A stretch of 8,114 nucleotides of DNA from a virus (Duplodnaviria; Heunggongvirae; Uroviricota; Caudoviricetes). The notes beneath the pieces were generated by a model. That model did no database searches. It was not told where the DNA came from and was given only the letters and a program-made list of their open reading frames with translations. Below are positions 1 to 8,114 of this stretch, in pieces. Each line of letters starts with the position of its first letter. Within the stretch, counting starts at the first letter, position 1. The stretch is taken from the IMG/VR virus record IMGVR_UViG_2548876863_000018, one strand, 5' to 3'. Both the position numbers and the translations under genes were made by a program.

Positions 1-354
1 GTTATAGTGCCGCAGTTTAAGGATCGGTCAACCGATCCTTAACTGATCGGCATTGCACATCTGTGGGCTTTCATGTTACCAGGAGCCGCGGCTCCTTTGC
101 GTATCCTTTTATGTCTCCTCACCGTCTGGTCGGTGTTTTGCTGAGACTTCTAACTTCCTGTTTTTGTTGGTGTTGTCCTTACACCGTCCAATCATGATTG
201 GGCTGGCGGAGTTTGAATAAATATTGTATTGCTTTGATTTTTAATGATTTTGTTTAATTCATTTTTTGTGCGTATACCTAATCGTATACCAATGGCTGTA
301 AGTTAATGTGAAATGAAAACGCATTTTTACTTGGATTGATGCTATATCGTACAG

Positions 355-657
355 GAAAAAAATTTTTTTTCGAAAGAACTGTTCACACTGTTCACCTTTC
401 TGTTTTCTCCTTTTATTTCAGTTGGATAGGTGGTGAATAATGGGTGAAGGGTGAACATTCGATTCTTCACCTCCGGCATTCTGCCGGTGTGACTCATACC
501 GGTGATTAATCCCCCGTACTGAAAATCACACAGGGAGAAAAAAGTTTTTTTTGATTTGATTGTTCACACTGTTCACCTTTCGTTTTTCTCTTTTAATTTC
601 AGTGTGATAACGGGTGAATATACGGTGAAGGGTGAACAGTGGATTGTTCACCTTCGG
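355..657. repeat. crr: crr-like cis replication region: two direct repeats of about 120 bp (about 355-475 and 536-657), each carrying TGTTCACC-type octamer iterons in both orientations
   Basis: Seen in sequence: tgttcacactgttcacc at 380-396 and 561-577; ggtgaa(t/g/c) copies at 432-457 and 612-638; tgttcacc at 645-652. P4 crr is known to lie just downstream of alpha and to contain duplicated iteron blocks bound by alpha. Confidence 0.75.
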
Positions 658-670
658 GGAATTCAGGGAT

Positions 671-695
671 AAAAAAAGACCGGCAGATGCCGGTC
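671..695 (-). terminator. Rho-independent terminator downstream of alpha (hairpin gaccggc-agat-gccggtc followed by a T7 run on the minus strand)
   Basis: Perfect 7-bp stem at 678-684 / 689-695 with 4-nt loop; plus-strand A7 at 671-677 is a U-run on the minus transcript, about 17 nt after the alpha stop codon (712-714). Confidence 0.65.
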
Positions 696-711
696 AGATG
701 AGTCATGATGG

Positions 712-3045
712 TCAGGTTGTTGCAGGGTCGTCACATTTTGGCAGCCAGTCGCCGTAGCTTTCCTCTTTCAGCGTCAGGTTGGTCTGTATCCCCTGTTTGG
801 TATGGCGCTTCTCGTAATTCAGTCCGTATTCCTTCAGCATCACCGGCAGCCCCAGCCCGAACATTTTCAGACTGAGTACATTCCGGTAGCCGTTTGCCTC
901 CATGTAGGCCAGATAGGCGTGATAGAGGTATTTACGGTAATTACGCGGGATGATACTGGCGTTCCCCATATACATGCCGCTGGTCTGCGGCAGGGTTTCC
1001 AGATAGCCGATAAAATCAAACGTCGGGTCGGCATCCCGTTTGATGTTCAGTGCCTCGTCTGAGTTCTGCTGGGACTGAAGCAGTGACCGGGCGAGCATCG
1101 GGTCGCTGAATTTCTGCATCAGGTGACGCACGATGACCGCCAGCTCGCGGGTGATTTTGTCCTTAAGCTGCGGGTCGCGCTCCTGCGGGGTTATCTGTTC
1201 CGGGAAGTGAATAATCACCCGCCGGCGTGACACGCCGCCGCTGCGGTCGGTGAAGCGCATCGGGTTATTGTTCACGGCCAGAATCACCGCCGGGATATGC
1301 GTGGAGTACGCATCCCGGTATTTCGGGTCCACGGACACCGCATCGCCGCCGGTGATGGCCTTGAGTCCGGCACCGTCGCCGCTCCATTTTTCCTGGTCCG
1401 GCAGGCGTATCAGTGAGAAGCCAGTTAACGCGGCACGTTCACGCGGGGATTCCAGCGTCTCGATGGTGGCCGACGTGGCGTTATCCTCCCCGGCCAGCAG
1501 GGTGGCTATTTCGGCCATGATACTTTTGCCGCTGCCGCCGGGACCGGTCACCTCCAGAAAGAGCTGCCAGTCGTAGCGGTTCGCCAGCACCATAAACAGT
1601 GCGGCCAGAATCACGTCGCGTTTTTCCGCACGGCCACCGGCGGCACGGTCAAGCCAGCGCCAGAACGCGGGGGCGTGGGTCTCCAGCGTTTCACCGTCCA
1701 CCGGCGGGGTGAAATCCACATCGCACAGGGTGCGCATCCAGTGTGACGGACTGTGCGGGTGGAACGTGCCGTTCTGCGTGTCGAGCACGCCGTTACGAAA
1801 GCCAATCAGGCGGCGGGAGGGGGCTTCCTGCTGCGGAATAATCAGCTTCAGGGTGTCCACCACGGAGGCCACCTTCCCGGAGGAGAACGGCGCGCGCAGA
1901 CGCTGAAACAGCCCGGCCACATCCCGGGCAAAGTCCTGTGGCGGCAGCACCTTCCAGACACCATTTTCATAGCGGGACAGAAGCTGGCCGTTGGCATCGA
2001 CCGCGAGCGCCTCGCCGTAATGCTCATAGATACGCATGGCCTTTTCGCTGGTACTCATGGCGGAAAACTCCGCTTCGCTCATGGTGTCGAACGGGCTTTC
2101 AGCCGGTGGCCGGATGGCATCGTAAATGGCCTTACGGGTGGCCTCCCCGCCGTACTGCGTGAAGGCATCATTCCAGTCACCGAAGACCGGCGGCAGGGCA
2201 ACAACGCCCTCACACGCATCTGCGGCTGCGGCGGCTTTTGTCTGGCCGTCACCGCTGAGGTCACGGTCTGCGGCAAGGACAATCTGACAGGCCGGATACT
2301 TCTGCCGGGCAAGGCTGGCCAGAGAAAGGAGGTTCACGGAAGAAAGCGCCACCATCACCGTTTCACCGGTCAGGTGATGCACGGTAAGTGCGGTCGCGTA
2401 TCCCTCCGCTATCCACAGACGTTTTCCGGCCTGATTCTGTCCTTCAAAGGTGTGACAGGTGCCCCTGACCTGTCCGCCTTTCAGAGTGCGCTTACGGCCG
2501 TCAGCACTGATTAACTGAAGGTTAACCAGTTCGCCGCTGTCGTCATACAGTGGCACCACAAGGTCACCGGCGCGCCAGCTCACGCCACCGGCTCTGTGTG
2601 TGCCGGTCAGCATCCGGCATTCCCGGCCGGGAAAGCCCTTGCGGGTCAGGTAGGCGTTACCGGTTCCGGGACAGGTTTTCGCCATCAGGGTTTGTGCCAG
2701 TGCGGCGGCGTTCTTCCGGGCAGCGTCTGTTTCAGCACCAGCGGCAGCCCTCACTGCCGGGTCAGCCGGTGGCAGACTGCCGGTCACGGCAGCCACCTTT
2801 GCGGCCGCGTCGGACGGGGAAACACCAAACACCTTTTCAACCAGTTTCAGACCGTCACCGGCACCACACTGATTGCAGTACCAGGTGCCGCGCCCCTCCT
2901 TGTCATCAAAACGGAAGCGGTCACTCCCGCCACAGACCGGACAGGGCTGATGACGGTTTTTCAGCACCTGAATCCCCAGCGCCGGGAGAATACGCGGCCA
3001 GTGGCCGAGCGCATGGCTGACGGTGGCGGTTACGTTCATTTTCAT
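712..3045 (-). CDS. alpha: P4 alpha-type bifunctional primase / SF3 helicase / origin-binding replication protein (777 aa)
   Basis: 777-aa ORF, the length I recall for P4 alpha; N-terminal zinc-ribbon CPVCGGSDRF...YCNQCG; Walker A GPGGSGKS in the central helicase part; AAGGAGA Shine-Dalgarno 8 nt before the ATG; flanked by TGTTCACC iteron clusters (ori upstream, crr downstream). Confidence 0.95.
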   Translation of the reverse strand: MKMNVTATVSHALGHWPRILPALGIQVLKNRHQPCPVCGGSDRFRFDDKEGRGTWYCNQCGAGDGLKLVEKVFGVSPSDAAAKVAAVTGSLPPADPAVRAAAGAETDAARKNAAALAQTLMAKTCPGTGNAYLTRKGFPGRECRMLTGTHRAGGVSWRAGDLVVPLYDDSGELVNLQLISADGRKRTLKGGQVRGTCHTFEGQNQAGKRLWIAEGYATALTVHHLTGETVMVALSSVNLLSLASLARQKYPACQIVLAADRDLSGDGQTKAAAAADACEGVVALPPVFGDWNDAFTQYGGEATRKAIYDAIRPPAESPFDTMSEAEFSAMSTSEKAMRIYEHYGEALAVDANGQLLSRYENGVWKVLPPQDFARDVAGLFQRLRAPFSSGKVASVVDTLKLIIPQQEAPSRRLIGFRNGVLDTQNGTFHPHSPSHWMRTLCDVDFTPPVDGETLETHAPAFWRWLDRAAGGRAEKRDVILAALFMVLANRYDWQLFLEVTGPGGSGKSIMAEIATLLAGEDNATSATIETLESPRERAALTGFSLIRLPDQEKWSGDGAGLKAITGGDAVSVDPKYRDAYSTHIPAVILAVNNNPMRFTDRSGGVSRRRVIIHFPEQITPQERDPQLKDKITRELAVIVRHLMQKFSDPMLARSLLQSQQNSDEALNIKRDADPTFDFIGYLETLPQTSGMYMGNASIIPRNYRKYLYHAYLAYMEANGYRNVLSLKMFGLGLPVMLKEYGLNYEKRHTKQGIQTNLTLKEESYGDWLPKCDDPATT

Positions 3046-3059
3046 GGTGTTGTTCTCCT

Positions 3060-3380
3060 TCAGTGCAGTACCGGCGCTTTTATGTGACGGGCACAGAGTT
3101 CATCCATCACAACCAGCCCGAGAAAGGACAGCGACGGCGCGGCCTTCAGGGGGCCGGATTCCATTAAATCTTCCAGCAGGGCACAGGCTATCTGACGCCC
3201 TTTTTCCTCACCGTGCTGGCGCAGATAAAAGCCTTCCAGCTCAGCGGCGATGGCCGCCTCCAGTGATTCAAGGGTGAGATGCGGGTAGCGGTGCTGACGT
3301 TCGCACACGGTCAGCCAGGCACAGGCGACAGCACGACGGTAAAGGGCTGCGCGTAAGACGGGCGGTAAGGGTGTTTTCAT
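3060..3380 (-). CDS. Small left-operon protein, P4 orf106-like (106 aa), function unknown
   Basis: 106-aa ORF directly upstream of alpha with a 14-nt gap that contains the alpha RBS; GGGAGG SD before its own ATG; position and size match the P4 orf106 I recall. Confidence 0.7.
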
Positions 3381-3515
3381 TTGCTTTCCTCCCTGTGACA
3401 GATGACTGCATTCCGTGCCGGTTGCATTAACTGATAAGGCATATCTGCGTCTCCTGAAGACGTGCGTATCCCTGCGCGAATACGCACATTTAATTTTTCG
3501 GGTGTCGTTTTTTAA

Positions 3516-3971
3516 TTACAGATAATTGCGGTAACTGTTATCCGGTGTGATTTCCGGGTCAGGCTCCGTGCGGGGGATTTCCCGCCATTCCCGCGCCACC
3601 GGTGCCGCCCGGCTGACCGGAACAGTGTCCTGCGGGTAAATATCCAGATATTTCTCCCGCCATTTCTGTAATTCCGGGTCTCCGGCCATTTCTTTCAGTA
3701 CCGCATGCCGGTTTACGGGGCTGCGTCTGAACAGGTCAGGACAGTCACAGGTAAATTCCCGCAGAAAACGCCCCAGCGGGATGTCTGTGGTGCGCCCGTC
3801 ACCAAGGATACGCACAAGGATACTGAATTTACGGCGGTACGGGTTCCAGACAATTTCCGGGCAGCGGTACGGCATTTCCCACGGAATACCGTCTTCCAGA
3901 ATGCCGACCACGGCCACATCGGGAAAACCGGCAGAACGGTAAATCTCACCGGGCTGGGGAAAATCAAACAT
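3516..3971 (-). CDS. Left-operon protein, P4 orf151-like (151 aa), function unknown
   Basis: 151-aa ORF whose ATG (3971-3969) overlaps the stop of the upstream ORF (ATGTTTGA, out of frame), implying translational coupling; size matches P4 orf151. Confidence 0.7.
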   Translation of the reverse strand: MFDFPQPGEIYRSAGFPDVAVVGILEDGIPWEMPYRCPEIVWNPYRRKFSILVRILGDGRTTDIPLGRFLREFTCDCPDLFRRSPVNRHAVLKEMAGDPELQKWREKYLDIYPQDTVPVSRAAPVAREWREIPRTEPDPEITPDNSYRNYL

Positions 3972-4251
3972 GCGTCCTGTCTCCCCGGTCTTTCTGCTGG
4001 GCGAGAAAATCGCGGCACAGGCCTTTGGCTTTCAGCTCATTCAGCACAAAATCAATATCTTCATTCAGGTAGCTGAAAATATGCGGAATGTAGAGCTGAT
4101 GCAGGCCGGAGAGTTCACGGTGAATCAAATCACCCCCAACAAACTGGGATACGGCGCTGGCGCGGTTGAGCTTATGGTAAGCCTCAATGCTGAGGTGTTC
4201 ACGGGCGTCATGACGCGCTGAGACGGTCTGAGGGGCTTTTTTATTACGCAC
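3964..4251 (-). CDS. epsilon: Epsilon-like small protein (95 aa, GTG start); candidate P2-repressor antagonist (derepression protein)
   Basis: GTG at 4251-4249 preceded by GGAGG with a 6-nt spacer; the GTG overlaps the kil/eta TAA stop (GTGCGTAA). The track's longer 147-aa version starts at a TTG and has a low-complexity N-terminus. Assignment to epsilon is by position and size only. Confidence 0.5.
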
Positions 4252-4441
4252 GGGACACCTCCACCACCGGCAGACGGGCAGCAAGGGAGAGCACATAGTC
4301 ACGGACAAGGGAACGGCGGGCGCTGCGTTCATCACCGGCGACGGTGCGAAGCATGCAGATACGGGGATGACGGTCTGCGCGACGGACAGCCGCAAACACA
4401 AAGACAAATTCAGGGTGTGAGGGGGTAAGGGTTGTAGCCAT
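4244..4441 (-). CDS. kil: Kil-like 65-aa polypeptide, first translated gene downstream of the PLE-like promoter; nested in-frame within eta
   Basis: ATG at 4441-4439 with strong AAGGAGA SD (plus 4449-4455) 7 nt upstream; 65 codons; about 318 nt downstream of the predicted PLE start site; the SD overlaps the seqC-like element. Matches my recollection of P4 kil (65 aa, nested in eta). Confidence 0.55.
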
Positions 4442-4834
4442 AAGGCAGTCTCCTTCGAGTAGCAAATAACTGCTATCGCCGGAGTTCCTACGCTCGATGG
4501 CGATAGCCCAGACGGGGGTAGGAATACCGGCCTCGAAGAATACCGGCCAGCCCGGAGGCTGCCCCGCCTGAGCTACCATTGACTCAGTGGCATAACATGC
4601 GATTGCGAACAGGATCATACCTGCACGGCAAACCACACGCCACACCATAATCTGGCGCTCTGTGGCGTTGATTGCGACACAAAAAAAGACGCATGGCGCG
4701 TCATATGTCGCCTTCGAGTTACACGGGTTCCTACGCCCGGCTGCCGATTTTGCGACAGCGGAAAAACTATATCCGCAAATGCCGGAAAAAGGCAAGCCAG
4801 AAAAAGGGACTTTTTGCAGAGCGGGCATCATCAT
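4244..4834 (-). CDS. eta: Eta-like long ORF (196 aa) whose C-terminal 65 codons are kil; would be translated only from PLL read-through transcripts
   Basis: ATG at 4834-4832 overlaps the vis stop (ATGA); the ORF runs across the PLE promoter, seqA, the cI region and seqC. Composition is odd for a globular protein, so the N-terminal part may be an overprinted or regulatory reading frame. Confidence 0.4.
4452..4493 (-). promoter_or_regulatory. seqC-like antisense target (cttcgag ... gttcctac) overlapping the kil ribosome-binding site
   Basis: ccttcgagt at 4452-4460 and gttcctacgc at 4484-4493; both are reverse complements of the seqB-like motifs at 4517-4538. Confidence 0.45.
4500..4575 (-). 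ncRNA. cI: cI-like immunity RNA region containing the seqB-like element; boundaries approximate
   Basis: ggtaggaa (4517-4524) and ctcgaag (4532-4538) are complementary to both flanking elements; tandem gaataccggcc repeats and GC-rich palindromic segments suggest a structured RNA. Location between PLE and kil matches the P4 immunity leader. Exact ends cannot be set from sequence. Confidence 0.4.
4711..4736 (-). promoter_or_regulatory. seqA-like antisense target in the PLE leader
   Basis: ccttcgagt at 4711-4719 and gttcctacgc at 4727-4736, about 20-50 nt downstream of the predicted PLE start; complementary to the seqB-like motifs. Confidence 0.45.
4766..4795 (-). promoter_or_regulatory. PLE-like sigma70 promoter (minus strand -35 TTGCCT, 18-bp spacer, -10 TATAGT)
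   Basis: Plus-strand aggcaa at 4790-4795 and actata at 4766-4771 read on the minus strand as TTGCCT and TATAGT; predicted start near 4759, just upstream of the seqA-like element. Confidence 0.4.
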
Positions 4835-5097
4835 GCGTCATACCCCCGTTTGCGTCCGGCAATGCGGCCGGCCATCCATGCGGTGACTTCAGAGTGCAGC
4901 CAGGCCACATTTTTACCGCCAAGACTCACCTGCGGCGGAAATTCCCCCTTACGGATGAGTTCATAGATGGTCGAGCGTGACAGGCCGCACAGGTGCATCA
5001 CTTCCGGCAGACGTAAAAAACGCTCCTGCGTGATGTCCGGCAGCGGCATCAGTGGCGTCACAGGGGCGGGAGACGGGGAAGAAAAAACAGCTTGCAT
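4831..5097 (-). CDS. vis: Vis / AlpA-family helix-turn-helix DNA-binding protein (88 aa), late-promoter regulator and excision factor
   Basis: 88-aa ORF with AlpA-type HTH signature ([27 protein letters not shown]); GAGG SD; first gene downstream of the PLL-like dyad; size matches P4 orf88/vis. Confidence 0.8.
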
Positions 5098-5200
5098 CGG
5101 GCTACCTCGTTAATGTCCATACAGCACCGGATAAGTCCGTCCGGCTTCGGGTAGCGCTTTATTTTGTGAATATTTTCAGCAGACGCAACAGGGGGGGATT

Positions 5201-5218
5201 TGTTCCGGCAGCCTTACA
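5201..5218 (-). promoter_or_regulatory. Ogr/Delta-type activator site TGT-N12-ACA of a PLL-like late promoter driving vis and the left operon
   Basis: tgt-tccggcagcctt-aca, an exact TGT-N12-ACA dyad about 110 bp upstream of the vis ATG (5097), consistent with a -55-centred activator site. Confidence 0.45.
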
Positions 5219-5377
5219 ATGCTTGTGTGTTTTTTGTTCATCTCCACTTAAAGTCATTTAAAGCCACTTAAAGCAATTCGTAATTTTTATAGTGAAATAC
5301 AAATCGTTTTTTCTTATTCATTTCCGGCAAATTAATAAAAACAAACAGTAGTAAACAGCACAAAAAGCCCATCAACG

Positions 5378-5481
5378 GGTGAACAGTGGTGAACAGACGG
5401 TGAACAGTCATTACTGCGATTGTTCACCCTTTAACTTACTGTATTACTTATCTTTTTTCTTATGATGAACAGAGGTGAACA
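5378..5481. repeat. ori: ori-like iteron cluster (GGTGAACA / TGTTCACC octamers)
   Basis: ggtgaaca at 5378-5385, 5388-5395, 5399-5406 (about 10-bp phasing), tgttcacc at 5421-5428, gatgaaca at 5463-5470, ggtgaaca at 5474-5481; about 4.8 kb from crr and between divergent late promoters. Confidence 0.7.
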
Positions 5482-5560
5482 GTAAAATATAAAAAAACAA
5501 ACAGTAAGCCGGTTTTTCCTGCGACCTTTTCCTGGCTTGCCGGTCTGAGGATGAGTCTCC

Positions 5561-5578
5561 TGTGTCAGGGCTGGCACA
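5561..5578 (+). promoter_or_regulatory. Ogr/Delta-type activator site TGT-N12-ACA of a Psid-like late promoter
   Basis: tgt-gtcagggctggc-aca at 5561-5578, about 80 bp upstream of the sid ATG at 5651. Confidence 0.5.
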
Positions 5579-5650
5579 TCTGCAATGCGTCGTGTTGTTG
5601 TCCGGTGTACGTCACAATTTTCTTAACCTGAAGTGACGAGGAGCCGGAAA

Positions 5651-6385
5651 ATGTCTGACAACACCATCCCTGAATATCTGCAACCCGCACTGGCACAACT
5701 GGAAAAGGCCAGAGCCGCCCACCTTGAGAACGCCCGCCTGATGGATGAGACCGTCACGGCCATTGAACGGGCAGAGCAGGAAAAAAATGCGCTGGCGCAG
5801 GCCGACGGAAACGACGCTGACGACTGGCGCACGGCCTTTCGTGCAGCCGGTGGTGTCCTGAGCGACGAGCTGAAACAGCGCCACATTGAGCGCGTGGCAC
5901 GCCGGGAGCTGGTACAGGAATATGACAATCTGGCCGTGGTGCTGAATTTCGAACGTGAACGCCTGAAAGGGGCGTGTGACAGCACGGCCACCGCCTACCG
6001 GAAGGCACATCATCACCTTCTGAGTCTGTATGCAGAGCATGAGCTGGAACACGCCCTGAATGAAACCTGTGAGGCGCTTGTCCGGGCAATGCATCTGAGT
6101 ATCCTGGTACAGGAAAATCCGCTCGCCAACACCACCGGCCATCAGGGCTACGTCGCACCCGATAAAGCTGTCATGCAGCAGGTGAAATCATCGCTGGAAC
6201 AGAAAATTAAACAGATGCAAATCAGCCTCACCGGCGAGCCGGTTCTCCGGCTGACCGGACTGTCAGCGGCAACACTCCCGCACATGGATTATGAGGTGGC
6301 AGGCACACCGGCACAGCGCAAGGTGTGGCAGGACAAAATAGACCAGCAGGGTGCAGAGCTTAAGGCCAGAGGACTGCTGTCATGA
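5651..6385 (+). CDS. sid: Sid capsid size-determination external scaffold protein (244 aa)
   Basis: Begins MSDNTIPEYLQ from the ATG at 5651 with GAGGAG SD 7 nt upstream (the track's 250-aa version begins at an upstream GTG, 5633); coiled-coil-like sequence; followed by delta and psu in the canonical order. Confidence 0.9.
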   Translation: MSDNTIPEYLQPALAQLEKARAAHLENARLMDETVTAIERAEQEKNALAQADGNDADDWRTAFRAAGGVLSDELKQRHIERVARRELVQEYDNLAVVLNFERERLKGACDSTATAYRKAHHHLLSLYAEHELEHALNETCEALVRAMHLSILVQENPLANTTGHQGYVAPDKAVMQQVKSSLEQKIKQMQISLTGEPVLRLTGLSAATLPHMDYEVAGTPAQRKVWQDKIDQQGAELKARGLLS

Positions 6386-6882
6386 TTTACTGCCCGTCGT
6401 GTGGACATGTTGCTCACACCCGCCGCGCACATTTCATGGACGATGGCACCAAGATAATGATTGCACAGTGCCGGAATATTTATTGCTCTGCGACATTTGA
6501 AGCGAGTGAAAGCTTTTTCTCTGACAGTAAAGATTCAGGAATGGAATACATTTCAGGCAAACAGAGATACCGCGATTCACTGACTTCTGCCTCCGGCAGT
6601 ATGAAACGCCCGAAAAGAATGCTTGTTACCGGATATTGTTGTCGGAGATGTAAAGGCCTTGCACTGTCAAGAACATCGCGGCGTCTGTCTCAGGAAGTCA
6701 CCGAACGTTTTTATGTGTGCACGGATCCGGGCTGTGGTCTGGTGTTTAAAACGCTTCAGACCATCAACCGCTTCATTGTCCGCCCGGTCACACCGGACGA
6801 ACTGGCAGAACGCCTGCATGAAAAACAGGAACTGCCGCCAGTACGGTTAAAAACACAATCATATTCGCTGCGTCTGGAATGA
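6382..6882 (+). CDS. delta: Delta late transcriptional activator, tandem Ogr-type zinc-finger protein (166 aa)
   Basis: Two Ogr-like cysteine motifs (CPSCGH...CRNIYC and CRRCKG...CTDPGC); ATG overlaps the sid stop (ATGA); 166 aa as recalled for P4 delta. Confidence 0.9.
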   Translation: MIYCPSCGHVAHTRRAHFMDDGTKIMIAQCRNIYCSATFEASESFFSDSKDSGMEYISGKQRYRDSLTSASGSMKRPKRMLVTGYCCRRCKGLALSRTSRRLSQEVTERFYVCTDPGCGLVFKTLQTINRFIVRPVTPDELAERLHEKQELPPVRLKTQSYSLRLE

Positions 6883-6955
6883 GGGCTGCCGGTTAACCCC
6901 GGCCGTCGCCGCACACCGTATTTTTATTCTTCAGCATGATGAGAAAGAGATAACG

Positions 6956-7528
6956 ATGGAAAGCACAGCCTTACAGCAGGCCTTTGACACCTGTCAGAAT
7001 AACAAAGCAGCATGGCTGCAACGCAAAAATGAGCTGGCAGCGGCCGAACAGGAATATCTGCGGCTTCAGTCAGGAGAAGGCAGAAACGTCAGTCGCCTGG
7101 ACGAATTACGCAATATTATCGAAGTCAGAAAATGGCAGGTGAATCAGGCCGCCGGTCGTTATATTCGTTCGCATGAAGCCGTTCAGCACATCAGCATCCG
7201 CGACCGGCTGAATGATTTTATGCAGCAGCACGGCACAGCACTGGCGGCGGCACTGGCACCGGAGCTGATGGGCTACAGTGAGCTGACGGCCATTGCCCGA
7301 AACTGTGCCATACAGCGTGCCACAGATGCCCTGCGTGAAGCCCTCCTGTCCTGGCTTGCGAAGGGTGAAAAAATTAATTATTCCGCACAGGATAGCGACA
7401 TTTTAACGACCATCGGATTCAGGCCTGACGCGGCTTCGGTGGATGACAGCCGTGAAAAATTCACCCCTGCGCAGAACATGATTTTTTCGCGTAAAAGTGC
7501 GCAACTGGCATCACATCAGTCTGTGTAA
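6956..7528 (+). CDS. psu: Psu polarity-suppression protein (Rho antagonist and capsid decoration), 190 aa
   Basis: 190-aa ORF third in the sid-delta-psu operon; begins MESTALQQAFDTCQNNKAAWLQRKNELAAAEQEY; size and position match P4 psu. Confidence 0.9.
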   Translation: MESTALQQAFDTCQNNKAAWLQRKNELAAAEQEYLRLQSGEGRNVSRLDELRNIIEVRKWQVNQAAGRYIRSHEAVQHISIRDRLNDFMQQHGTALAAALAPELMGYSELTAIARNCAIQRATDALREALLSWLAKGEKINYSAQDSDILTTIGFRPDAASVDDSREKFTPAQNMIFSRKSAQLASHQSV

Positions 7529-7563
7529 AATTCCCCGAAAATCCGCCCGTTTTTACTGAAAAA

Positions 7564-7604
7564 AGCCATGCATCGATAAGGTGCATGGCTTTGCATGCGT
7601 TTTC
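7564..7604 (+). terminator. Hairpin downstream of psu (agccatgca / tgcatggct stem), possible late-operon terminator
   Basis: 9-bp perfect stem at 7564-7572 / 7582-7590 with a 9-nt loop; the T-tract after it is interrupted (ttgcatgcgttttcc), so terminator function is uncertain. Confidence 0.35.
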
Positions 7605-7692
7605 CTGCCTCATTTTCTGCAGACCGCACCATTCCCGGCGCGGTCTGAGCGTGTCAGTGCAACTGCATTAAAACCGCCCCGCAAAGCGGGCG

Positions 7693-7711
7693 GGCGAGGC
7701 GGGGAAAGCAC
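7693..7711. other. cos: cos cohesive-end sequence of P2/P4 type (GGCGAGGCGGGGAAAGCAC)
   Basis: Exact 19-nt match to the P2/P4 cohesive-end sequence as I recall it, in the expected place after psu; GC-rich hairpin (7620-7647) immediately upstream. Confidence 0.8.
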
Positions 7712-7817
7712 TGCGCGCGATGTATCATAAAAATGTCTTTTAGAATTATCACAAATCTCATTCAGCTTTAAAATTCATTTTCAAGATGTAGATCTGTGCT
7801 TTATATGAACGTAATAT

Positions 7818-8090
7818 ATGAACATTAACGACTTATTTTTCCACATGGAGCAAAGTGAAGTGGCGATTGTTGAATTGCATTTTGATGGCGATATTGCACC
7901 TGATCACCAAGTATCCCTGAGAACTCTTTCTAAAAGCCTAGGCCATTTGCAAAGTGCCTTAGATCGGGCTTATCTTGACATCAGACATGGTAATCTTTGG
8001 AAATATGCAAAGATGCATCATGACTACTATAAAGATGTTGAACTGTTGGTACAGCCCCCTAGGGAAGGTGCGAACAAGTTCCTGATATGA
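7818..8090 (+). CDS. Hypothetical 90-aa protein, first gene of the AT-rich cargo after cos; function unknown
   Basis: Complete ORF in a region whose base composition is visibly more AT-rich than the rest of the window; no clear Shine-Dalgarno; its stop overlaps a downstream ATG (ATGA at 8087-8090) that opens a reading frame continuing past the window end. Confidence 0.55.
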   Translation: MNINDLFFHMEQSEVAIVELHFDGDIAPDHQVSLRTLSKSLGHLQSALDRAYLDIRHGNLWKYAKMHHDYYKDVELLVQPPREGANKFLI

Positions 8091-8114
8091 GATCATCATA
8101 TTCATCCGGAGCGC

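What the first reader, a model, noticed from the sequence alone, without database searches (positions are those of the whole stretch)
7712..8114. AT-rich cargo begins right after cos: 90-aa unknown gene plus a coupled ORF running off the window
Everything from crr to cos is GC-rich canonical P4 machinery. From about 7720 the composition turns AT-rich and encodes a 90-aa protein (7818-8090) with no motif I recognise. Its stop overlaps an ATG at 8087 (ATGA) whose frame (MRSSYSSGA...) continues beyond the window, suggesting a small operon. The psu-cos-int interval of P4-like satellites is a known hotspot for variable anti-phage cargo (gop-beta-cII in P4 itself). If this is not P4's own cargo it could be an uncharacterised defense or toxin-antitoxin module, but only its first roughly 400 bp are visible.
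Basis: partly seen in the sequence, partly recalled or inferred. Interest (0 to 1): 0.65.

Follow-up and report, generated by a model that had tools for sequence, protein, structure and literature searches.

The report
IS-broken cargo gene in P4 satellite
The "90-aa gene plus coupled ORF" after cos is the first quarter of a longer, already catalogued P4-hotspot gene that an ISKpn26 insertion sequence has cut in two, so it is a broken copy of a known candidate defence cassette and not a new small operon.

Summary
The sequence facts hold. GC drops after cos, a 90-codon ORF lies at 7818-8090, and an ATG at 8087 overlaps its stop. The reading as a small coupled operon does not hold.

In 24 complete E. 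coli genomes the same DNA (99.7%) continues as a 299-aa gene (A), followed by an overlapping 219-aa four-transmembrane gene (B), then int and ssrA. In the window this homology stops at a CTAG (8059-8062). From 8063 to the end, the sequence is the left end of the IS5-family element ISKpn26. The last 6 codons and the stop of the "90-aa protein" are IS sequence. The "coupled ORF" is a 15-codon reading frame in the IS leader. The window ends there because the draft contig breaks at the repeat.

The cargo is not P4's gop-beta-cII. It is system no. 30, "HP + 4TMs", in Rousset et al. 2022. That study cloned it and did not list it among its validated defence systems. DefensePredictor (2026) scores gene A as a predicted novel defence gene.

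The A+B pair is conserved from enterobacteria to a cyanobacterium. A has a C-terminal OB-like barrel and B is a helical membrane protein. A sensor plus membrane-effector abortive-infection module is plausible but unproven. Interest is low.

The parts
6956..7528 (+). psu (polarity suppression protein), the last conserved P4 gene before the hotspot
   Evidence: 190-aa ORF. 99% identical to reference P4 psu. Annotated as Psu in relatives.
7693..7711 (.). P4 cos cohesive-end sequence GGCGAGGCGGGGAAAGCAC. Conserved P4 DNA runs on to about 7718-7720.
   Evidence: The P4 record ends at window 7692. P4 bases 1-26 align to 7693-7718.
7746..7774 (+). Sigma-70-like promoter candidate for the cargo operon (TTATCA-17-TAAAAT)
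   Evidence: Consensus scan only, 9 of 12 matches. Rousset et al. cloned the cassette with this upstream DNA as its native promoter. Function not shown.
7818..8062 (+). 5' fragment of cargo gene A (WP_024238668 family): residues 1-82 of 299 counted from the annotated ATG. The real start is probably GTG 7860, preceded by GGAG at 7847-7850.
   Evidence: 99.7% identical to 24 complete E. coli genomes, where the ORF continues to 299 aa. Most homologues start 5-6 residues before the HFDGD motif. Buttiauxella has a 2-nt indel just upstream that changes the frame but keeps GGAG-N9-GTG.
8059..8062 (.). CTAG target site of the IS5-family insertion (left copy of the expected 4-bp duplication)
   Evidence: Junction alignment A1. 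An ISKpn26 copy in crfC is flanked by CTAG on both sides.
8063..8114 (+). Left terminal inverted repeat and leader of ISKpn26 (IS5 family), with its transposase in the same orientation as gene A. It supplies codons 83-90 and the stop of the 90-aa ORF, of which only 85-90 differ from native A, and the ATG-8087 mini-ORF.
   Evidence: Identical to annotated ISKpn26 copies. The query window 8050-8114, mostly this IS segment, matches 5,511 places in 1,828 E. coli genomes. The transposase ATG lies 19 nt past the window end.
8087..8114 (+).
   Evidence: Translation of the same IS stretch in L002. The source-like contig L035 continues ...GGGACATCATGAG.

Best explanation
Window 7712-8114 is the start of the variable cargo slot of a P4-like satellite integrated at ssrA. 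It holds the promoter region and the first 245 nt of gene A of a two-gene cassette. In intact form, A is a 299-aa annotated soluble protein (probably 285 aa) and B is a 219-aa four-transmembrane protein, with overlapping stop and start.

An ISKpn26 element (IS5 family, 1,196 bp) has inserted at a CTAG inside gene A. This creates a chimeric 90-codon ORF: 82 native codons, 2 codons that happen to match the native ones, then 6 IS-encoded codons and an IS stop. It also places a 15-codon IS leader frame over that stop. The window and its draft contig end in the IS because the repeat breaks the assembly. All of this is shown directly.

Inferred: the insertion destroys A, since it cuts inside the N-terminal module and removes the helical bundle and the OB-like barrel. 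It also separates B from its promoter, so this copy is a dead allele.

For the intact cassette my best guess, at about 35-40%, is an anti-phage abortive-infection module. The cytosolic A protein would sense a phage-derived ligand, possibly nucleic acid through its C-terminal OB-like barrel. It would then release or activate the B protein, which would damage the inner membrane. No step of that mechanism has been demonstrated.
For: Junction: homology to intact genomes ends at 8062-8070, with the single mismatch at 8063. From 8063 the window is identical to annotated ISKpn26 ends. ISKpn26 in crfC is 1,196 bp with CTAG on both sides. The mini-ORF stops after 15 codons.

The exact 90-aa product is on 5 public contigs. 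One of them, of 8,157 nt, ends 21 nt past the window inside the IS.

Intact cassette: A, B, int and ssrA in NZ_CP024127. A+B adjacency is conserved in Salmonella, Serratia, Xanthomonas, Pseudomonas, Phormidium and others. A B-profile hit lies immediately downstream in 14 of 23 loci, with a gap of -34 to +2 nt.

Literature: Rousset 2022 Table S1 lists it as system 30 with 51 occurrences, and names NZ_CP024127 itself with WP_024238668 + WP_024238669. Table S2B lists the clone pFR87 'HP + 4TMs'. DefensePredictor Table S10 gives WP_024238668.1 a mean log-odds of 4.90, above the cut-off of 4, as a 'Predicted novel defense gene'.

Defence-like contexts: the P4 hotspot, and a position next to AIPR and SIR2 genes in Xanthomonas.
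Against: Against the structural reading: nothing found. The right-hand IS junction and the rest of the cassette are outside the window and were not recovered, so a larger rearrangement instead of a simple insertion cannot be excluded.

Against the defence mechanism: the cloned cassette is in Table S2B ('additional tested systems'), not among the seven P4-encoded systems that protected E. coli MG1655 against a panel of eight coliphages. Only the TIR-NLR system protected against P2-like phages. There is no significant hit to any PADLOC, Pfam or NCBIfam family. OB-like barrels also bind metals and sugars, and the top hit, SilF, is a metal chaperone. B's fold matches are generic helical hairpins. 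Several homologues sit in non-defence neighbourhoods, such as a nif cluster and a site next to glmS.
Confidence: 0.93

Rival explanations
1. One reading: an intact small operon made of a complete 90-aa protein translationally coupled (ATGA) to a downstream partner, forming a toxin-antitoxin or defence module.
For: The ORF and the ATGA overlap exist in the sequence. The location is the P4 defence hotspot.
Against: The ORF's last 28 nt and the whole 'partner' are ISKpn26 sequence, present in thousands of unrelated places. The partner frame stops after 15 codons. All full-length relatives are about 285-299 aa.
Confidence: 0.02
2. The intact A+B cassette is not an anti-phage system. It would instead be a selfish or addiction-type module, or a satellite accessory such as superinfection exclusion, helper manipulation or a membrane function, that merely rides in the hotspot.
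For: It is not listed among the systems that protected against 8 coliphages or P2-like phages. It occurs as an isolated two-gene insert in unrelated neighbourhoods. It carries recurrent inactivating lesions at one spot, as expected for a costly or toxic module.
Against: Most untested or 'negative' P4 hotspot loci later proved defensive when induced or tested on larger panels: 6 of 8 unknown loci in the NAR 2026 study. DefensePredictor scores A above its strict cut-off. The Xanthomonas copy lies beside AIPR and SIR2 genes.
Confidence: 0.35
3. The truncated N-terminal fragment (68-82 native residues) is itself functional, for example as a decoy or dominant-negative regulator, and the IS insertion is adaptive.
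For: The same allele is on 5 contigs. Three different truncations fall within about 8 nt. The fragment keeps the most conserved motif, HFDGDIAxxH.
Against: The cut falls inside the predicted N-terminal module, before strand 86-92. CTAG is the preferred IS5-family target and lies next to a C5 run, so a mutational hotspot explains the clustering. The 5 contigs may be clonal. No standalone short form is conserved in other lineages. Short hits could not be told apart from fragments cut at contig ends: most are on contigs under 2 kb, but some (P0204, P0247, P0262) are on longer ones.
Confidence: 0.03
4. The IS junction is an assembly chimera, and gene A is intact in the real genome.
For: The window comes from a short-read-type contig that ends in a repeat.
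Against: The junction has the exact ISKpn26 terminus abutting its canonical CTAG target. It is found on 5 contigs, including an NCBI assembly and a separate Logan assembly of a sequencing run. Assemblers break at repeats and do not fuse precisely at IS termini.
Confidence: 0.02

Closest known systems
P4-hotspot system no. 30, 'HP + 4TMs' (Rousset et al. 2022, Cell Host Microbe, PMC9122126; clone pFR87 from Escherichia marmotae E1118)
   Same: The cos-proximal DNA (...GCACTGCGCGCGATGTATCATAAAAATG...) matches as far as the stored entry shows it. Protein 1 is identical through residue 84. The position between psu-cos and int is the same.
   Different: Here the gene is cut after codon 82 by ISKpn26, and protein 2 (4TM) is not in the window. 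The published cassette is intact, but it was not among that study's validated defence systems.
ISKpn26 / IS5 (IS5 family insertion sequences)
   Same: The terminal repeat GGAAGGTGCGAACAAG... and leader are identical to annotated ISKpn26 copies, and it is inserted at CTAG, the 4-bp target seen duplicated in other copies.
   Different: Only the first 52 nt are in the window. The transposase gene, the right end and the second CTAG copy are not visible.
P4 reference cargo gop-beta-cII
   Same: It occupies the same slot after cos and before int, and is a hotspot system validated as anti-phage.
   Different: There is no DNA or protein similarity, and the gene number and architecture differ.
Two-gene sensor plus transmembrane-effector abortive-infection systems (for example RexAB, and the HAD-like hydrolase + TM and RT-nitrilase + TM systems of the same hotspot)
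   Same: A soluble protein is followed by a small multi-pass membrane protein in one operon, carried by a prophage or satellite.
   Different: There is no sequence or whole-fold similarity to any of them, and no defence phenotype has been shown. This is a resemblance of architecture only.
Pfam DUF7946 (PF25678), NCBIfam LAPAL_fam and phrog_3243
   Same: There is weak N-terminal similarity over residues about 19-110. 21 of 51 family members hit DUF7946 at E<=0.01, best 3.2e-6.
   Different: The score is below the curated threshold (15.5-15.8 bits against 27). The match covers only the first third of the profile, and those families also have no known function.

Membership tests
P4-like satellite psu-cos-int variable hotspot cargo | Lies directly after psu and cos of a P4-like element | tested here: met
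   psu at 6956-7528 and cos at 7693-7711, 99% identical to reference P4.
P4-like satellite psu-cos-int variable hotspot cargo | Bounded on the other side by the P4 integrase and the attachment site | not testable with these tools
   This lies outside the window. In the near-identical element of NZ_CP024127 the cassette is followed by int and ssrA.
P4-like satellite psu-cos-int variable hotspot cargo | Content differs between otherwise near-identical elements | tested here: met
   955 E. coli genomes cover at least 80% of the window, but only 24 carry this cargo. Reference P4 diverges at about 7719.
Rousset 2022 system 30 'HP + 4TMs' | Protein 1 is the 299-aa WP_024238668-type protein | tested here: met
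   Window residues 1-84 are identical to the published protein 1. It is truncated thereafter.
Rousset 2022 system 30 'HP + 4TMs' | Protein 2 is the 219-aa 4TM protein immediately downstream | not testable with these tools
   The window and its source-like contig end in the IS. Protein 2 is present in all intact relatives.
IS5-family element ISKpn26 | Terminal inverted repeat GGAAGGTGCGAA... and leader identical to the named element | tested here: met
   8063-8114 is identical to two PGAP-annotated ISKpn26 copies.
IS5-family element ISKpn26 | Insertion at a 4-bp CTAG (YTAR) target that is duplicated | tested here: inconclusive
   The left CTAG is present at 8059-8062 and is part of the uninterrupted gene. 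The right copy is beyond the window. Duplication is seen in another copy.
IS5-family element ISKpn26 | DDE transposase gene | not testable with these tools
   It starts 19 nt beyond the window. Contig L035 ends at ...CATCATGAG, the transposase start.
Pfam DUF7946 | Score at or above the gathering threshold (27 bits) | tested here: not met
   15.8 bits for the 90-aa ORF and 15.5 bits for the full protein. Relatives reach at best E 3.2e-6.
Known anti-phage defence systems (PADLOC-DB v2) | Significant match of A or B to any model | tested here: not met
   No family for the fragment, for full A or for B. Across 51 relatives there are only scattered single hits at E>=0.001.
P4 gop-beta-cII | Homology to gop, beta or cII | tested here: not met
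   BLASTP of A gives E 48 against gop and E 6.4 against beta. cII was not compared at protein level. No P4 left-end DNA match.
Validated anti-phage system (functional definition) | Reduces phage plaquing when expressed in a naive host | not testable with these tools
   Published test: pFR87 is listed under 'additional tested systems', not among the validated ones. It is not among the TUs screened by DefensePredictor.

The most novel reading that the evidence does not exclude
The intact A+B cassette, of which this window holds a dead copy, is a real and mechanistically new abortive-infection system. A small family of about 285-aa proteins, with a private N-terminal HFDGD module and a C-terminal OB-like barrel, would sense a phage nucleic acid or protein and gate a 4TM membrane-disrupting partner. 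Recurrent knock-outs at one CTAG/C5 site (ISKpn26, IS5 and a frameshift) would reflect its fitness cost.
Probability: 0.35. Interest if true: 0.5.

Novelty: already known. Interest (0 to 1): 0.2.

Why it matters
As written, the finding does not open a new question: it is an IS-truncated pseudogene of a cassette already listed, cloned and tested in the P4-hotspot literature.

It has practical value in three ways:
- It shows how a contig that ends in a multicopy IS can look like a short gene with a coupled partner.
- It is an example of a pseudogenised defence-hotspot locus, which a recent survey reports as rare.
- It points back to a compact, widely scattered two-gene cassette (OB-like soluble protein plus 4TM protein) whose function is still unknown. 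Machine learning predicts it is defensive, but a small phage panel did not support that, so it is a reasonable candidate for re-testing on a broad panel.

Tried and rejected
- Profile searches of the 90-aa ORF, full-length A and B against Pfam, PADLOC, NCBIfam and PHROGs gave only sub-threshold hits or function-unknown PHROGs.
- A PDB sequence search with the A profile gave only weak coiled-coil-like hits to haemagglutinin HA2 (E 0.011), which I judged compositional.
- An exact search for the IS junction in the GTDB representative genomes found nothing. No complete E. coli genome has this junction, so the downstream half could not be recovered.
- A profile search with the N-terminal module alone, meant to find relatives with other C-terminal domains, returned only short proteins of the same family. 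It did reveal two further truncated alleles.
- I considered whether the A family is a true DUF7946 member and rejected it on the score threshold.
- I considered a toxin-antitoxin reading. Nothing supports it beyond the two-gene layout.
- Text searches for DUF7946 and for the WP accessions in paper main texts gave nothing.
- The NAR 2026 P4 paper names six newly validated systems, and none is described as this architecture. Its supplements are not held.

Full report
**1. What is in the sequence**

The window is a P4-like satellite. It holds a P4-family primase (712-3045, minus strand), the Ash/Icd/AlpA-type genes, sid/delta-like genes and psu (6956-7528). Reference P4 (X51522/NC_001609) matches window 6900-7692 at 99%, and the match stops at the last base of the linear P4 genome. 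P4 bases 1-26, which are the cohesive end GGCGAGGCGGGGAAAGCAC plus a few bases, align to window 7693-7718. After that the two sequences are unrelated. GC content falls from about 0.55 to about 0.40 over this boundary. The 90-codon ORF at 7818-8090 and the ATGA overlap at 8087-8090 are also really there.

**2. The ORF is a truncated gene and the 'partner' is an insertion sequence**

I searched window 7700-8114 against 5,426 complete E. coli genomes.
- Twenty-four genomes match positions 7700-8070 at 99.7%, and none matches further.
- Positions 8038-8114 independently match thousands of places, up to 43 per genome, on chromosomes and plasmids.

In the intact relatives, such as NZ_CP024127 (locus L001), the ORF continues to 299 codons (WP_024238668). 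A 219-codon gene (WP_024238669) follows, with its ATG overlapping the stop (TAATG). Then come the P4 integrase and ssrA.

The multicopy segment is annotated as the IS5-family element ISKpn26 in two unrelated loci. A four-way alignment fixes the junction.
- Window and intact gene are identical up to CCCCCTAG (CTAG = 8059-8062).
- From 8063 the window reads GGAAGGTGCGAACAAGTTCCTGATATGAGATCATCATATTCATCCGGAGCGC, identical to the ISKpn26 left end.
- The native sequence after CTAG (AGAAGGTGG...) happens to resemble the IS terminus (GGAAGGTGC...). This is why BLAST ran on to 8070 with a single mismatch.

A complete ISKpn26 in crfC is 1,196 bp and is flanked by CTAG on both sides.

So codons 1-82 of the 90-aa ORF are native. 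Codons 83-84 (E, G) coincide by chance. Codons 85-90 (ANKFLI) and the TGA are IS sequence. The frame opened by ATG 8087 reads MRSSYSSGAHPRGTS and stops. It lies in the IS leader, and the transposase ATG comes 19 nt beyond the window.

The exact 90-aa product is on five public contigs. One of them (GCA_027978995.1, 8,157 nt) spans the whole window and ends 21 nt later, still in the IS leader. The window runs off because short-read assembly breaks at the repeat. No complete E. coli genome and no GTDB representative genome carries this junction. The closest complete genome, NZ_AP042519, is about 100% identical over 38-8070 with an intact gene.

**3. The likely true start**

Most homologues begin 5-6 residues before the invariant HFDGD motif. 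That corresponds to GTG 7860 in the window, preceded by GGAG at 7847-7850. In Buttiauxella a 2-nt indel just upstream changes the upstream frame but preserves GGAG-N9-GTG. One gene call in a public assembly also starts at MAIVEL (P0279). I infer that the real protein is about 285 aa and that the native part of the truncated product is about 68 residues.

**4. What the intact cassette is**

Gene A belongs to a small, uniform family.
- It has 95 clusters at 90% identity.
- It has 173 representatives at 50% identity among 1.84 billion proteins. The full-length ones are all about 280-300 aa with no domain fusions; the shorter hits look like fragments or truncated alleles.
- Members come from Enterobacterales, Vibrio, Shewanella, Pseudomonas, Xanthomonas, Burkholderiales, Desulfobacterota and a cyanobacterium.

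A gene for a 217-224-aa protein with four hydrophobic segments at matching positions follows immediately, with a gap of -34 to +2 nt. A profile built from B homologues recognises it in 14 of 23 loci examined, including Phormidium, Pseudomonas, Variovorax and Xanthomonas.

The pair appears as a self-contained insert in varied settings:
- P4-type remnants after psu or ogr/delta in Salmonella and Serratia
- beside AIPR and SIR2 genes in Xanthomonas
- next to glmS in Shewanella
- inside a nif cluster

No Pfam, NCBIfam or PADLOC model matches either protein significantly. PHROGs has both as function-unknown families. There is a reproducible but sub-threshold relationship of the N-terminal ~90 residues to DUF7946 (21 of 51 members, best E 3.2e-6).

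The AlphaFold model of A is confident (pLDDT 90.7). It has three parts:
- an N-terminal alpha/beta module carrying the HFDGD motif
- a helical bundle
- a C-terminal five-to-six-stranded barrel

**5. What the literature already says**

Rousset et al. 2022 (PMC9122126) list this cassette as P4-hotspot system 30, with 51 occurrences, as 'hypothetical + hypothetical, 4 TM in protein 2'. They name NZ_CP024127 with WP_024238668 + WP_024238669. They cloned it as pFR87 'HP + 4TMs' from E. marmotae E1118, with its native upstream DNA, which is the same sequence as in this window.

That clone is in Table S2B, 'additional tested systems', not in Table S2A, 'validated defense systems'. The main text says seven P4-encoded systems protected against a panel of eight coliphages, and that only the TIR-NLR system protected against P2-like phages.

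DefensePredictor (PMC13092281), Table S10, lists WP_024238668.1 with a mean log-odds of 4.90 (range 4.04-5.77, strict cut-off 4). It is labelled a 'Predicted novel defense gene' with no homology to known systems. It is absent from the table of units they screened.

The 2026 NAR survey of P4/P2 hotspots reports that 6 of 8 randomly chosen unknown P4 loci protected when induced and tested on 28 phages, and that pseudogenes are rare in these loci. None of its named new systems is described with this architecture.

**6. How it most likely works**

For the window itself, the allele is dead. A is cut inside its first module, and B is displaced 1.2 kb from its promoter. This is an inference from the anatomy. 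The structural facts are shown directly.

For the intact cassette I commit, at roughly 35-40%, to an abortive-infection scheme. Soluble A would be the sensor, with its OB-like barrel binding a phage-derived nucleic acid or protein. The 4TM protein B would be the membrane-damaging effector. The supports for this are:
- the architecture
- the tight co-inheritance of A and B
- the hotspot and defence-island contexts
- the machine-learning score

No experiment shows it, and the one published test did not detect protection. The main rival, at about 35%, is a non-defence selfish or accessory module.

**7. Seen in passing**

Two further truncated alleles of A map to the same few nucleotides.
- P0250, from E. 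coli, is A residues 1-84 followed by the translated end of canonical IS5, inserted at the same CTAG in the opposite orientation.
- P0279 is a -1 frameshift in the adjacent C5 run.

Whether this reflects the IS5-family target preference plus a slippery homopolymer, or selection against a costly cassette, is unresolved.

**8. Verdict**

The object is an ISKpn26-disrupted copy of an already catalogued, already tested two-gene hotspot cassette of unknown function. Novelty: already known. Interest: low (0.2). The residual interest lies in the intact cassette, not in this window.

Noticed in passing
window 8055-8063; proteins P0250 and P0279: Three different truncating lesions of gene A fall within about 8 nt: ISKpn26 at CTAG (this window), canonical IS5 in the opposite orientation at the same CTAG (P0250, E. 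coli), and a -1 frameshift in the adjacent CCCCC run (P0279). This could be a mutational hotspot or counter-selection of the cassette.
   Followed up: partly
window 7845-7862: The annotated ATG 7818 is probably not the real start. Homologues start at the position of GTG 7860, which has a GGAG 9 nt upstream. Buttiauxella has a frame-changing 2-nt indel just upstream but keeps GGAG-N9-GTG.
   Followed up: yes
window 1-37; L035 1-59: The first 37 nt of the window do not match the otherwise ~100% identical element in NZ_AP042519. They contain a perfect hairpin (TTAAGGATCGGT/ACCGATCCTTAA). The draft contig extends only 22 nt further left, so this end may also abut a repeat or a different integration context.
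   Followed up: no
window 340-660: There are two ~110-nt direct repeats rich in TGTTCACC-type motifs (about 362-470 and 545-655) upstream of the primase gene.
   Followed up: no
L001 4004-5217; hits H67/H68: Sister copies of this same P4 element carry other insertion sequences: an IS3-family element between the 151-aa ORF and the derepression gene in NZ_CP024127, and ISEc12 in two chicken isolates. So this satellite lineage repeatedly accumulates IS elements.
   Followed up: no
L008 7691-10660 (Xanthomonas sp. WHRI 10064A): The Xanthomonas A+B pair is followed directly by an AIPR-domain gene and a SIR2-domain gene, a defence-island-like neighbourhood.
   Followed up: partly
L030 5671-9415 (Shewanella sp. 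4t3-1-2LB): The A+B pair sits immediately downstream of glmS, the classic Tn7-type attachment region, at the end of a contig.
   Followed up: no
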